Shown: piece after piece, positions 10,178-13,082 of the stretch
Position numbering within the stretch: the stretch's first letter is position 1
Layout: each line of letters starts with the position of its first letter
Assembly: GCA_963829835.1 (NCBI GenBank)
Contig: CAWHKC010000002.1
Span: 6,279 to 70,278 of the forward strand
Reading direction: 5' to 3'
Source of the DNA: an uncultured Pseudomonadota bacterium
GTDB taxonomy: Bacteria; Pseudomonadota; Gammaproteobacteria; Berkiellales; Berkiellaceae
DNA: 64,000 nt
Made by a program: the position numbers and the translations under genes
Notes under the pieces: model-generated
What the model was told of the DNA's origin: nothing
Databases searched by the model: none
Seen by the model: the letters and a program-made list of their open reading frames with translations, nothing else

Positions 10178-10241
10178 GTAGGGTGGGTAAAGCGAAGCGT
10201 GCCCACCATCTCGTGGGCACGCTACGCTTTGCCCACCCTAC
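10178..10241. repeat. GTAG-family REP doublet (REPIN-like)
   Basis: gtagggtgggtaaagcgaagcgtgcccac (10178-10206) and its inverse gtgggcacgctacgctttgcccaccctac (10213-10241), 2 mismatches. Confidence 0.88.
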
Positions 10242-10448
10242 AACTGACTCTTAAGTTCGTGCAAGGTATCTCAAGGAGTATAGTAACGGACCTTGATTTT
10301 AAAAGAAATTAAAGAGTATACCTACACGATTTAGTTTACTAGATGACATCACAGTTCTAGTAGTGGTATGTTAATAGTAAGACTCACGTTATAGTGAAAC
10401 TGATGACGCTTAACGCAGTTTTATAAGTTCTTGATTAAGGAGCCTAAG

Positions 10449-10769
10449 ATGCGTCACCATGAACGACCAGATATCGGAGATTGGTATAAAAACCAGGATT
10501 ATAACAATATTTTTGAAGTAGTCGCTTCTGACGAAGGTGACGACTATGTGGAAGTACAGTATTTTGCTGGTGAAATCGAAGAGTTTGATATTGAAACATG
10601 GTATGAACTTGACTTAAAACGCATCCCAGCCCCAGAAGACTGGTCAGGACCTTATGAAGTTGCTCGAGAAGATCTTGGTTATTCTGATGAAACAATTCAT
10701 CCTGAAGACTGGTCTGGCCCTTTAAGTGAAATTGAACCTAACGACCCACCTTCCAGAAATGAAAATTGA
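10449..10769 (+). CDS. Small acidic hypothetical protein, DUF6763-like
   Basis: IGDWY..., FEVVASD, EVQYFAGEIEEFDIETW and PEDWSGP motifs (PEDWSGP occurs twice). AAGGAG RBS before ATG at 10449. Confidence 0.65.
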   Translation: MRHHERPDIGDWYKNQDYNNIFEVVASDEGDDYVEVQYFAGEIEEFDIETWYELDLKRIPAPEDWSGPYEVAREDLGYSDETIHPEDWSGPLSEIEPNDPPSRNEN

Positions 10770-10771
10770 CG

Positions 10772-10791
10772 CTATCCTATTAGTAGGATAG
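10772..10791 (+). terminator. Hairpin after the DUF6763-like gene
   Basis: ctatccta-ttag-taggatag, a perfect 8-bp stem just after the stop; U-tract is weak. Confidence 0.4.
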
Positions 10792-10997
10792 AAATGAGAT
10801 TCCTCTTTGTTTTTGTGTGAAAAGCTTGGCAACATCAACCCTTTTCATCTTGCATTGCACTAAATTTTGCTAATTTGGTGATCTCATTTTAATATTGATA
10901 TATGAAATAAATTATTATTTATGCTAGAAATTCGTTATATTCTTTAAAGTAGTGTGAGCGTAGTTGGCGAACTCTAGATCCGATAGCTATACTGGTT

Positions 10998-11013
10998 CTG
11001 TACCTTTGAACAG
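10998..11013. promoter_or_regulatory. SOS (LexA) box, gammaproteobacterial type
   Basis: CTGT-acctttga-ACAG (CTGT-N8-ACAG), 12 bp upstream of the lexA ATG. Confidence 0.75.
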
Positions 11014-11025
11014 GGAAGCAAAGTT

Positions 11026-11655
11026 ATGCCTACAAGTTCCTCTCCACAATCCATGAGTCTCACTCGTCGCCAAACTGAAGTCCTACAAGTTATTCGCAAT
11101 CATATTGAGAAAACTGGTGCTCCTCCAACTCGCGCTGAAATTGCTAAAACCTTAGGGTTTCGCTCTGTCAACGCAGCTGAGGATCATTTGAAAGCACTTG
11201 CGCGCAAAGGTGCCATCACTCTCGCGCCAGGTACTTCAAGGGGAATTCAATTAGCAAAAGAACATGGTATTGGTTTACCTATTGTAAAAACACACAGTGC
11301 TGATGGTCCCGTTTATGCTGAGAAAAATTTTGACGGCAGGATGCGCATTCAAAATGAATTCTTTAGCCCAAAACCTGATTACTTATTACAAGTTCAGGGA
11401 ATAAGTTTGATGGGCGCAGGAATCAAGGATGGTGATCTCTTAGCTGTTCATTGTTGTGATCATGCTGATAATGGAAAAATTATTATTGCTCGTGTGAATA
11501 ACAAGATCGTTGTTAGACGTTATTTCCGTCATGGCGATCAAATCGAGTTAAGAGCAGAGAACACTGATCATTCTCCCATCTACTTAAATGCAAATATGCA
11601 GCCTCTTGTTATTGAGGGAGTAGGTGTGGGTGTAATTAGAACGACCAGCTTATAA
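11026..11655 (+). CDS. lexA: LexA-family repressor with degenerate autocleavage determinants
   Basis: LTRRQ..., PPTRAEIA..LGFRSVNAAEDHLKALARKG, SRGI wHTH domain. C-terminal S24 domain has GISL (Ser kept), but VVRR replaces VTVKR and SADGP replaces AAGEP. Confidence 0.93.
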   Translation: MPTSSSPQSMSLTRRQTEVLQVIRNHIEKTGAPPTRAEIAKTLGFRSVNAAEDHLKALARKGAITLAPGTSRGIQLAKEHGIGLPIVKTHSADGPVYAEKNFDGRMRIQNEFFSPKPDYLLQVQGISLMGAGIKDGDLLAVHCCDHADNGKIIIARVNNKIVVRRYFRHGDQIELRAENTDHSPIYLNANMQPLVIEGVGVGVIRTTSL

Positions 11656-11674: not shown

Positions 11675-11713
11675 TAAGTCCAAGTAACTCCTTTAGAGAA
11701 AAGCTTGGACTTA
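11675..11713. terminator. Stem-loop between convergent genes (possible bidirectional terminator)
   Basis: taagtccaag (11675-11684) / cttggactta (11704-11713) inverted repeat with an inner ctc/gag pair. Confidence 0.45.
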
Positions 11714-12131: not shown

Positions 12132-13082
12132 ATGACTAAGAAAGGTGTAAGTACACTTTCTGAAGCAACTACTTGGCTTCAAGCTTTGATTAATCCAGAC
12201 TCGCTTGATCGTCGGCGTACTCTTCAACTCGAAGAAAGAGCCGCTCAACAAGCTTATGTAAGAAATCTAGCAGTTCAAAAAGCAAAAAGTCCTGAGGCAC
12301 CAAAGGATGATAGCCTTTTCAAAATGAAACAGCTTGCTGGAACTTATAAATGCAAGATTGCTAATGATGAATTTCCAAAAGGCTCAGAGGTTCAATGGAT
12401 CCAAACCATCAAATCAATTGACTACAAAGATAATGATATCGACCATCAAAATGCCGATGCTATTTTGCGACAGATAGAGAAAGTTGATTCTGTTACGGCT
12501 AAGGGTTTAGCTGAAAAAGCAGTTCAATTGGAAACCAAAGATCAACAAGCTGGACCTAAACGAGATATTAATGGCAAATTTATTGAACAAATTTTGCACG
12601 ATCTTGAAAATTCTTCCTCACAATCTTTGATTGTGAATTTAAGTAATCCTAAAAATGAAACAGCACCATTAGCATTTGCAATTCTTAAGGGTGAAAATGG
12701 TCTTTGGTTGCATGATTCCAAACTGGGCTCTTCTATCTATTTTAAAAATACTGAAACTGAAAATTTTAAGAAATTTTTAGTTGATCATATACGACTTAAT
12801 CATCAAGGTTTTAACAAAGGTTCTATTGTGCATGTTGGTAATAAAGAAACATTGAAAAAAGAAAAGGACGCCAATCTATCCAATACACAAACACACAGAC
12901 ATGATACTGTCGCTTTGGGGCGAAAAGCAGCCGCCGACGCGACAGCGACAGCGACAGCGACACCGACAGCGACACCGACAGCGACAGCGGCACCGACACC
13001 GGCAGATCAAGCAAAACCAGATAGAAGAAAGCTCCCCCAGCCAACCGATCCTAAGAGTCGCCCCAAAAAGGGTAATTTTTAG
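12132..13082 (+). CDS. Hypothetical protein, candidate secreted effector with Ala/Thr/Pro repeat tail
   Basis: 316-aa ORF with GGGGAG RBS; central segment resembles the YopT/C58 C-terminal strands; low-complexity tail. Confidence 0.75.
   Translation: MTKKGVSTLSEATTWLQALINPDSLDRRRTLQLEERAAQQAYVRNLAVQKAKSPEAPKDDSLFKMKQLAGTYKCKIANDEFPKGSEVQWIQTIKSIDYKDNDIDHQNADAILRQIEKVDSVTAKGLAEKAVQLETKDQQAGPKRDINGKFIEQILHDLENSSSQSLIVNLSNPKNETAPLAFAILKGENGLWLHDSKLGSSIYFKNTETENFKKFLVDHIRLNHQGFNKGSIVHVGNKETLKKEKDANLSNTQTHRHDTVALGRKAAADATATATATPTATPTATAAPTPADQAKPDRRKLPQPTDPKSRPKKGNF
12939..13004 (+). repeat. In-frame 6-bp tandem repeat (11 units, g/c-cg-a/g-ca)
   Basis: gcgaca x4, ccgaca, gcgaca, ccgaca, gcgaca, gcggca, ccgaca, ccggca; encodes ATATATATPTATPTATAAPTPA. 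Confidence 0.9.

What the first reader, a model, noticed from the sequence alone, without database searches (positions are those of the whole stretch)
11026..11655. Natural non-inducible LexA: cleavage site and catalytic lysine both lost
Seen: aligned by eye to E. coli LexA, GLPLVGRVAAGEP becomes GLPIVKTHSADGP (Gly85->Asp, also Gly80->Lys and Val82->His), and EVTVKR becomes KIVVRR (general-base Lys156->Arg, codon aga). Ser119 is retained (GISL). Established: G85D is the classic lexA3(Ind-) allele and Lys156 is needed for RecA*-stimulated autocleavage; Legionella pneumophila and Coxiella burnetii lack LexA; Synechocystis has a non-cleavable LexA repurposed for metabolic regulation. Inference: several independent inactivating changes in an intact ORF with an intact operator suggest a repurposed, RecA-independent regulator, possibly an intermediate on the way to LexA loss in this lineage. 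Proximity to the fad operon may be incidental.
Basis: partly seen in the sequence, partly recalled or inferred. Interest (0 to 1): 0.85.

Follow-up and report, generated by a model that had tools for sequence, protein, structure and literature searches.

The report
Naturally non-cleavable LexA in Berkiella
The DNA-damage repressor LexA of the amoeba-infecting bacterium Candidatus Berkiella has lost its self-cleavage site and catalytic lysine, yet a whole group of related genera has kept the gene under strong selection, so their classical SOS switch has probably been disconnected.

Summary
ORF 11026-11655 (+) is a full-length LexA: TIGR00498 scores 182.7 bits, and the alignment with E. coli LexA has no gaps. 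Ala84-Gly85 reads Ala-Asp, Lys156 is Arg (codon aga) and Ser119 is kept.

The genome is Candidatus Berkiella (Berkiellales). The changes are not errors or a recent allele. All 68 database homologs at 55% identity or more lack the Ser-Lys dyad lysine, and 67 of them lack Ala-Gly. All 52 more distant LexAs keep AG/S/K.

The altered clade spans six genera and is monophyletic. Canonical and partly altered LexAs branch below it, and three sister genera have no LexA at all.

The gene is under strong purifying selection in both domains (dN/dS about 0.05). The recognition helix and a CTGT-N8-ACAG operator just downstream of the -10 box are conserved.

No comparable box sits upstream of recA, uvrA, uvrB, recN, ssb, uvrD or umuC. 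Box counts genome-wide equal the control.

The best reading is a RecA*-insensitive, autoregulated pseudo-protease repressor whose SOS regulon has collapsed. Its targets beyond lexA itself are unknown. The closest precedent is Synechocystis LexA. Cleavage itself was not tested.

The parts
10964..10993 (+). Promoter-like site of lexA: TTGGCG, 18 nt, TATACT.
   Evidence: Consensus scan. The sequence is conserved in all orthologous loci of the genus and in genus g7. Its function as a promoter is inferred.
10998..11013 (.). LexA operator (SOS box) CTGTACCTTTGAACAG. It starts 4 nt after the -10 hexamer and abuts the ribosome-binding site.
   Evidence: Exact CTGT-N8-ACAG. It is identical in 3 other genomes of the genus, and variants are kept in genera g7, g2, g26, g8 and g5. 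It scores 28.9 bits with a PSSM built from lexA operators; the next best site in the genome scores 18.1.
11026..11655 (+). lexA, 209 aa, including the stop codon.
   Evidence: dN/dS is about 0.05 among 13 orthologs. The AlphaFold2 model has mean pLDDT 85.9.
11056..11256 (+). N-terminal winged-helix DNA-binding domain (residues 11-77). The recognition helix reads FRSVNAAEDHLKALARKG, against E. coli FRSPNAAEEHLKALARKG.
   Evidence: PF01726 match, alignment, dN/dS 0.026. Residues 47-55 are invariant in 62 clade sequences.
11299..11304 (+). Former scissile bond: Ala92-Asp93 (gct gat), equivalent to E. coli Ala84-Gly85.
   Evidence: Position 85 is Asp or Glu in 60 of 69 clade sequences and Gly in all 53 canonical ones.
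11404..11406 (+). Ser127 (agt), equivalent to the E. coli nucleophile Ser119. It is kept here but is not conserved in the clade.
   Evidence: It is replaced by T, C, A, G, V, H or F in other clade members, including a 99%-identical relative.
11515..11517 (+). Arg164 (aga), equivalent to the E. coli general base Lys156.
   Evidence: It is Arg in 68 of 69 clade sequences and Lys in all 53 canonical ones.
11676..11712 (+). Inverted repeat AAGTCCAAG...CTTGGACTT downstream of the lexA stop codon; a possible terminator.
   Evidence: Read. The terminator scan did not flag it because its loop is too long. This is inference only.
10431..10769 (+). DUF6763 gene (112 aa, acidic). It is a conserved upstream neighbour of lexA and has its own hairpin at 10772-10791.
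   Evidence: PF20549, 116 bits. It is syntenic with lexA in genera g1, g7, g2, g8 and g26. No functional link has been shown.

Best explanation
This is the vertically inherited LexA ortholog of Candidatus Berkiella. Its C-terminal S24 domain has become a pseudo-protease. The scissile Ala-Gly is now Ala-Asp, the general base Lys156 is Arg, and the nucleophile Ser119 is dispensable across the clade. The protein therefore most likely cannot cleave itself, with or without activated RecA. It still folds as a LexA and presumably still dimerises through its C-terminal domain. It still recognises the gammaproteobacterial CTGT-N8-ACAG box. It represses its own promoter from an operator placed right after the -10 element, which would hold its level constant instead of making it damage-inducible. 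The classical SOS genes recA, uvrA, uvrB, uvrD, recN, ssb and umuC have no such operator, so they are no longer under LexA control. What is shown: the sequence changes, their fixation across six genera, purifying selection on both domains, conservation of the operator, and absence of boxes at SOS genes. What is inferred: non-cleavability, DNA binding, autorepression, and that further, still unidentified targets or partners explain why the gene is kept.
For: Fixation: 15 of 16 species genomes of the genus carry the ortholog, and all have Arg at position 156 and lack Gly85. Among the 120 best database homologs, 68 of 68 at 55% identity or more lack Lys156 and 67 of 68 lack Ala-Gly, whereas 52 of 52 at lower identity are canonical. 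Single origin: in the ML tree the Berkiellaceae LexAs are monophyletic (100/97). Genus g9 (canonical) branches first, then g28 (no Ala-Gly, but Ser and Lys kept), then the Arg156 clade (95/84). Selection: dN/dS is 0.05 overall, 0.026 in the N-terminal domain, 0.063 in the C-terminal domain and 0.14 in the former cleavage loop. Relaxed catalysis: the canonical invariants G80, V82, A83, A84, G85, M120, T154 and K156 are all changed or variable, and Ser119 is replaced in about a fifth of clade members. New constraints: G73, R97, Q101, N102, K108, P109, L120, K126 and R156 are clade-specific invariants. Fold: the AF2 model has pLDDT 85.9. Its C-terminal domain superposes best on open, non-cleavable LexA conformers (8b0v_A, rmsd 1.7 A, TM 0.90) and less well on closed ones (1jhe_A, 8s7g_A, 8gms_A, rmsd 3.8-3.9 A). 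Operator conservation is shown. Regulon collapse: the genome has 22 exact boxes against 49 expected. Counts in 5 relatives equal the reversed-pattern control. No box within 1 mismatch lies near recA, uvrB, recN, ssb, uvrD or ruvB or near umuC and the umuD-like gene. recA lacks a box in 9 further genomes of the family, whereas in the canonical-LexA genus g9 the only two matches to its box pattern are upstream of lexA and recA. Each substitution on its own gives an uncleavable E. coli LexA: 1JHF is the G85D mutant, and K156R is described as uncleavable in PMC5760743.
Against: No biochemical test was possible, so non-cleavability is inferred from E. coli genetics. Ser119 is still present in this particular protein, and Arg can in principle act as a base at very high pH (my recollection of the mutant literature, not checked here). 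A repressor whose only detectable target is itself has no obvious selective value, yet the gene is strongly conserved, so part of its function is missing from this account. The regulon search used exact or near-consensus boxes, crude ORF calls and only 77% of one comparison chromosome, so diverged operators could have been missed. Conserved-box pairs were somewhat more frequent than the control (7 against 1 at a score of 10 or more), so a few weak real sites cannot be excluded.
Confidence: 0.72

Rival explanations
1. LexA is still damage-inducible by another route. Possible routes are residual Ser/Arg-mediated self-cleavage at a shifted bond, degradation by a cellular protease such as ClpXP or Lon, or displacement by an anti-repressor or partner protein. 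On this reading the SOS-type logic survives with a different trigger.
For: Ser127 is retained in this genome. The C-terminal domain is under strong purifying selection and has new invariant residues, which would fit a new interaction surface. RecA keeps its L2 loop, MFGSPETTTGG. A cleavable UmuD-like paralog is maintained, so RecA* co-protease activity is probably still in use in this lineage. An acidic DUF6763 protein is a conserved neighbour.
Against: Ser119 is replaced by T, C, A, G, V, H or F in about a fifth of clade members, including a 99%-identical relative. The whole cleavage loop (positions 80 and 82-85) varies. There is no SOS regulon left to induce: recA, uvrA, uvrB, recN, ssb and umuC lack boxes. 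No protease or anti-repressor gene is linked to lexA.
Confidence: 0.15
2. The gene is a decaying relic: a LexA that lost its function recently and is drifting towards pseudogenisation and loss, as has already happened in related genera.
For: Three genera of the same family (g3, g6, g27) have no LexA. Genus g4 carries a badly eroded copy, with the loop deleted and Lys changed to Gln. The predicted regulon is reduced to lexA itself.
Against: dN/dS is about 0.05 with saturated dS between species, and the closest pair gives dN 0.02 against dS 0.89. There are no frameshifts or stop codons in more than 60 sequences. The promoter and operator are conserved. Arg156 is invariant rather than drifting, and several clade-specific invariant residues have appeared. 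The clade spans six genera.
Confidence: 0.04
3. The substitutions are an assembly or sequencing artefact, or a strain-specific mutant allele comparable to laboratory lexA3(Ind-).
For: None beyond the formal possibility. The E. coli mutant G85D is the best PDB match.
Against: The same residues occur in independent isolate genomes and metagenome-assembled genomes from many studies.
Confidence: 0.01

Closest known systems
Canonical gammaproteobacterial LexA (E. coli LexA; PDB 1JHH, 3JSO)
   Same: The two-domain architecture is the same, and the alignment has no gaps at about 47-48% identity. The recognition helix is nearly identical. The CTGT-N8-ACAG operator overlaps its own promoter. The S24 fold is kept.
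   Different: The Ala-Gly bond is Ala-Asp and the general base Lys156 is Arg. The canonical invariants G80, V82, A83, M120 and T154 are lost. recA, uvrA, uvrB, recN, ssb and umuC carry no boxes.
E. coli non-inducible mutants lexA3 (G85D; PDB 1JHF) and K156R
   Same: Berkiella has the same two substitutions at the same positions. Each alone makes E. coli LexA uncleavable and SOS-deficient (PMC5760743).
   Different: In E. coli these are laboratory alleles that impair damage survival. In Berkiella both are natural, combined, and fixed in a multi-genus clade. They come with further remodelling of the loop and active site and with loss of the regulon.
Synechocystis sp. PCC 6803 LexA (Sll1626)
   Same: It is a natural LexA ortholog predicted to be non-cleavable. 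Ala-Gly is Gly-Gly and Ser119 is Asp. It is thought no longer to regulate the SOS response (PMC3091678; PMC7567884 abstract).
   Different: The phylum and the residue changes differ. Synechocystis LexA has documented non-SOS targets, whereas no alternative target was found here. In Berkiella the change is shared by a whole multi-genus clade, and canonical, intermediate and lost states all occur in sister genera.
Acinetobacter UmuDAb-type regulation (LexA absent, a UmuD homolog acts as repressor)
   Same: In both, the damage response is rewired away from LexA. Both genomes carry a long-form, cleavage-competent UmuD-like protein that is not adjacent to umuC (abstracts of PMC4807011 and PMC11332147).
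   Different: Berkiella keeps a LexA. I did not test whether its UmuD-like protein is related to UmuDAb beyond the S24 domain, or whether it binds DNA.

Membership tests
LexA repressor (TIGR00498 / PF01726 + PF00717) | N-terminal LexA-type winged-helix DNA-binding domain with the recognition helix SxNAAExHL | tested here: met
   PF01726 scores 89.6 bits. The helix reads SVNAAEDHL against E. coli SPNAAEEHL and is invariant in 62 clade sequences.
LexA repressor (TIGR00498 / PF01726 + PF00717) | C-terminal S24 (LexA/UmuD/signal-peptidase-like) fold | tested here: met
   PF00717 scores 77 bits. The AF2 model superposes on LexA C-terminal domain structures with TM 0.83-0.90.
LexA repressor (TIGR00498 / PF01726 + PF00717) | Whole-protein score above the curated equivalog cut-off, and orthology by phylogeny | tested here: met
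   TIGR00498 scores 182.7 bits against a cut-off of 110.95. The protein falls in a clade with canonical LexAs of the same family.
LexA repressor (TIGR00498 / PF01726 + PF00717) | Ala-Gly scissile bond in the cleavage loop | tested here: not met
   The bond reads Ala92-Asp93. Gly85 is absent in 68 of 69 clade sequences.
LexA repressor (TIGR00498 / PF01726 + PF00717) | Ser-Lys catalytic dyad | tested here: not met
   Ser127 is present but Lys156 is Arg164. Arg occurs in 68 of 69 clade sequences, and Ser is replaced in about a fifth of them.
LexA repressor (TIGR00498 / PF01726 + PF00717) | Autoregulatory SOS box at its own promoter | tested here: met
   CTGTACCTTTGAACAG lies at 10998-11013, downstream of the -10 box, and is conserved across genera. 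Binding itself was not tested.
LexA repressor (TIGR00498 / PF01726 + PF00717) | Control of a DNA-damage regulon (recA, uvrA/B, recN, ssb, umuDC and others) | tested here: not met
   These genes have no boxes in this genome or in relatives, and box counts equal the control. This is a prediction from sequence only.
LexA repressor (TIGR00498 / PF01726 + PF00717) | RecA*-stimulated self-cleavage | not testable with these tools
   It needs a cleavage assay. The sequence predicts none.
Naturally non-cleavable LexA (Synechocystis type) | LexA ortholog with the scissile bond and at least one dyad residue replaced | tested here: met
   compared with PMC3091678.
Naturally non-cleavable LexA (Synechocystis type) | Regulates genes outside DNA repair | tested here: inconclusive
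   No conserved operator other than lexA's was found. A few strong boxes are specific to this genome (P-type ATPase, patatin / M15 peptidase, sugar kinase) and are not conserved in G012 where orthologs exist.

The most novel reading that the evidence does not exclude
The former protease domain has been converted into a new kind of sensor or interaction module. The invariant Arg156, the nearly always acidic residue at position 85, and the other clade-specific invariants (R97, Q101, N102, K108, P109, K126) would form a new ligand- or partner-binding site in the old active-site cleft. One possible form is an Asp85-Arg156 latch. LexA would then answer a signal unrelated to RecA* and control a small, still unrecognised regulon tied to life inside the amoeba nucleus, perhaps together with the syntenic DUF6763 protein.
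Probability: 0.15. Interest if true: 0.8.

Novelty: new variant of a known kind. Interest (0 to 1): 0.6.

Why it matters
LexA self-cleavage is the defining switch of the bacterial SOS response. Natural LexAs that cannot cleave are known in essentially one well-studied case, Synechocystis. Here, within a single family of amoeba-associated Gammaproteobacteria, every stage is visible side by side. One genus has a canonical LexA with a recA box. One has lost Ala-Gly only. A six-genus clade carries a stably maintained pseudo-protease LexA without an SOS regulon. Three genera have no LexA at all. That makes the question 'what is LexA kept for once induction is gone?' directly testable. It also bears on why relatives in the Legionella/Coxiella group dispense with LexA. 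Finally, it offers natural, co-adapted versions of the classical Ind- alleles for structural work on the cleavage switch. I found no paper mentioning LexA in Berkiella.

Tried and rejected
1. A second LexA in the genome. There is none. The other S24 hits are one long-form UmuD-like protein, three XRE/CI-type repressors and one false positive, malate dehydrogenase.

2. An SOS regulon found by exact box. Of the 22 genomic boxes about 10 are intergenic, but their downstream genes are unrelated to repair: an M15 peptidase, a patatin, a MotA/TolQ-like protein, a P-type ATPase, an SDR and unknowns. None is conserved in G012 where an ortholog was available.

3. Boxes conserved between genomes. The apparent matches at C4:779078, C4:754757, C2:138624 and C4:1406270 all lie in coding sequence. 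The last encodes the PilT/PilU-type motif SDL[FY]L[TS]TG.

4. Whole-chromosome comparison with G012. recA, uvrB and several candidates fell in the missing part. recA was recovered separately.

5. RecA*-contact residues from the P. aeruginosa complex (PMC11787620). By my hand mapping of their positions, most pocket hydrophobics are kept. They also form the fold's core, so this does not discriminate. Only L181 (P. aeruginosa L187) is clearly relaxed.

6. Residue contacts in the AF2 model, such as Asp93-Arg164. No coordinates are returned, so this could not be measured.

8. A shared motif upstream of umuC1, umuC2 and the umuD-like gene. None was found by eye.

Full report
**What is there.** The ORF at 11026-11655 (+) encodes a 209-aa protein. 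It has a LexA DNA-binding domain (PF01726, 89.6 bits) and an S24 peptidase domain (PF00717, 77 bits). It passes the NCBIfam LexA equivalog model, TIGR00498, at 182.7 bits against a cut-off of 110.95.

HMMER aligns residues 11-206 to E. coli LexA 3-198 without a single gap, so residue equivalences are unambiguous:
- E. coli Ala84-Gly85 corresponds to Ala92-Asp93 (gct gat).
- Ser119 corresponds to Ser127 (agt).
- Lys156 corresponds to Arg164 (aga).

The top PDB hit is 1JHF, the crystallised E. coli G85D mutant.

**Which organism.** Titles of the closest public contigs name Candidatus Berkiella / Berkiellales, and some carry older labels such as Coxiellaceae or Francisellaceae. By my own knowledge, these are bacteria that live in amoebae and are related to Legionella and Coxiella. 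The assembly has 3.98 Mb in 4 contigs at about 38.6% G+C.

**Fixed or private?** The ortholog is present in 15 of the 16 other species genomes of the genus at 81-99% identity. All have Arg at position 156 and none has Gly85; they read A-D, with one A-E and one V-D.

Among the 120 best matches in a 5.8-billion-protein collection the split is clean:
- All 68 proteins at 55% identity or more lack Lys156 (67 Arg, one Gly), and 67 of the 68 lack Ala-Gly.
- All 52 proteins at lower identity carry Ala-Gly, Ser and Lys.

Ser119 is replaced by T, C, A, G, V or H in about a fifth of the clade, and by T in a 99%-identical relative. It is F in genus g5. Sequencing error and a private mutant allele are excluded.

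**History.** A maximum-likelihood tree makes the family's LexAs monophyletic (100/97). Genus g9 (Ala-Gly, Ser, Lys) branches first, then g28 (Ser-Thr at the bond, Ser and Lys kept), then a supported Arg156 clade (95/84). That clade contains genera g1 (this genome), g7, g2, g26, g8 and g5. Genera g3, g6 and g27 have no LexA, and g4 has an eroded copy with the loop deleted and Lys changed to Gln. The family therefore shows canonical, partly altered, fully non-canonical and lost states.

**Is the gene alive?** Yes. Nei-Gojobori dN/dS among 13 orthologs:

| Region | dN/dS |
|---|---|
| Whole gene | 0.05 |
| DNA-binding domain | 0.026 |
| C-terminal domain | 0.063 |
| Linker / former cleavage loop | 0.14 |

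For the closest pair, dN is 0.02 and dS is 0.89.

A column-by-column comparison of 69 clade and 53 canonical sequences gives three results:
- The residues invariant in canonical LexA around the reaction centre (G80, V82, A83, A84, G85, M120, T154, K156) are all changed or free to vary.
- New clade-specific invariants have appeared: G73, R97, Q101, N102, K108, P109, L120, K126 and R156.
- Position 85 is Asp or Glu in 60 of 69 clade sequences.

This is remodelling under selection, not decay.

AlphaFold2 with a 62-sequence alignment gives a confident LexA fold (pLDDT 85.9). Its C-terminal domain matches open, non-cleavable LexA conformers best: 8b0v_A at rmsd 1.7 A and 7b5g at 1.6-1.9 A. Closed, cleavage-competent conformers fit worse: 1jhe_A, 8s7g_A and 8gms_A at 3.8-3.9 A. 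That is consistent with the reading but weak evidence.

**DNA binding and autoregulation.** The recognition helix is almost identical to that of E. coli. An exact CTGT-N8-ACAG box sits at 10998-11013. It lies 4 nt after the -10 hexamer of a TTGGCG-18-TATACT promoter-like site and abuts the ribosome-binding site. Promoter and box are conserved throughout the genus. Variants persist in g7, g2, g26, g8 and g5. Autorepression is the natural inference.

**Regulon.**
- The genome holds 22 exact boxes where base composition predicts 49.
- In five relatives the counts (15-28) equal those of the reversed pattern (15-26).
- No box with one mismatch or fewer lies within 300 nt upstream of recA, uvrB, recN, ssb, either uvrD-like gene or ruvB. 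uvrA has one 1-mismatch site at -155 that is not conserved.
- A PSSM built from lexA operators scores the lexA site at 28.9 bits and nothing else above 18.1.
- I fetched 2.61 Mb of a relative's chromosome (G012) and defined 1,530 reciprocal-best-hit pairs. I then asked for boxes upstream of both members of a pair. lexA ranks first.
- The runner-up in that test lies inside a PilT/PilU-type coding motif, and the remaining candidates are weak. There were 7 pairs at a score of 10 or more against 1 for the control.
- recA has no box in nine further genomes of the family.
- In the canonical-LexA genus g9, the pattern CTGKNTAWWTNNACAG occurs exactly twice in the genome, upstream of lexA and of recA.

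Loss of cleavage and loss of the SOS regulon therefore go together in this family.

**The rest of the network.** RecA is intact, including the L2-loop Phe. The genome has two orphan UmuC-type polymerase genes. It also has an orphan long-form UmuD-like protein of 204 aa. Its N-terminal motif is GGKRxGAGRPxGxGKYGEPTKxIRVP, and it scores 162 bits on the UmuD subfamily model. It keeps Ala-Gly, Ser and Lys, as do all 120 of its closest homologs. So RecA*-dependent cleavage is probably still used in this lineage, just not on LexA.

**Comparison with known systems.** In E. coli, G85D (the 1JHF mutant; by my own knowledge the classical lexA3 allele) and K156R (PMC5760743) are each used as uncleavable LexA alleles. 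The nearest natural precedent is Synechocystis PCC 6803 LexA, with Gly-Gly at the bond and Ser119 changed to Asp. It is thought to have left SOS control (PMC3091678).

The Berkiella case differs in four ways: lineage, residues, the retained canonical operator, and the graded series within one family. No paper in the library mentions Berkiella together with LexA. I class it as a new variant of a known kind.

**Limits.** Cleavage, DNA binding and regulation were not measured. Gene calls were crude ORF calls. The reason this repressor is so well conserved remains unexplained. That gap leaves room for an undiscovered regulon or partner.

Noticed in passing
G000 C4:713149-713790 (L001 1240-1881), outside the window: An orphan long-form UmuD-like S24 protein of 204 aa, counted from MTKK. 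Its conserved N-terminal motif is GGKRxGAGRPxGxGKYGEPTKxIRVPxSL, and Ala-Gly, Ser and Lys are intact. All 120 closest homologs are also intact, and they include 'LexA family protein' entries of Synechococcus elongatus and Methylococcus. It lies between a cbpA/dnaJ-like gene and htpX, not next to umuC. It is a candidate for the damage-cleavable regulator or polymerase subunit of this lineage.
   Followed up: partly
G000 C4:1078556-1079860 (-) and C4:3048707-3050035 (-): Two UmuC-type Y-family polymerase genes. Neither has an adjacent umuD, and neither has a LexA box upstream.
   Followed up: partly
window 10431-10769 (+): A DUF6763 gene encoding an acidic 112-aa protein with a repeated EDWSGP motif. 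It sits directly upstream of lexA in genera g1, g7, g2, g8 and g26, and within about 2 kb of lexA in three outgroup loci. It has its own hairpin at 10772-10791. No function is known.
   Followed up: partly
window about 10180-10250; also upstream of a uvrD-like gene (C4 about 1103100-1103200) and of umuC2 (C4 about 3049990-3050030): A repeated GC-rich palindromic element, GTAGGGTGGG[CT]AAAGC...GCGTGCCCACC...GGTGGGCACGC...GCCCACCCTAC, recurs in intergenic regions. It looks like a REP/MITE-type repeat.
   Followed up: no
window 11026-11055 (lexA codons 1-10): Synonymous divergence is unusually low here (dS 0.15-0.57, against about 1-2 in the rest of the gene). The N-terminal extension MPTSSSPQ is conserved at the nucleotide level. 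This suggests a constraint on translation initiation or on the mRNA next to the operator.
   Followed up: no
window 12132-13082 (+): The gene downstream of lexA encodes 316 aa with no Pfam match and a C-terminal Ala/Thr/Pro repeat (ATATATPTATPTATAAPTP). It evolves fast (31-48% identity in relatives) or is absent, while its flanks are conserved. It may be a lineage-specific secreted or effector-like protein.
   Followed up: no
G024 (genus g9) C26:8960-8975 and C182:14138-14153 (L269, L270): In the genus that keeps a canonical LexA, the box variant CTGG-N8-ACAG occurs upstream of both lexA and recA. These are the only two matches of CTGKNTAWWTNNACAG in that genome.
   Followed up: partly
G000 C4:170100-170744, C4:878602-879234, C4:843329-844018: Three XRE-HTH plus S24 (CI-like) repressors. 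In two of them the catalytic motifs look degenerate by eye (DSDAM in place of GxSM; FTAREL in place of xxKR). They may be prophage or island repressors that are also non-cleavable.
   Followed up: no
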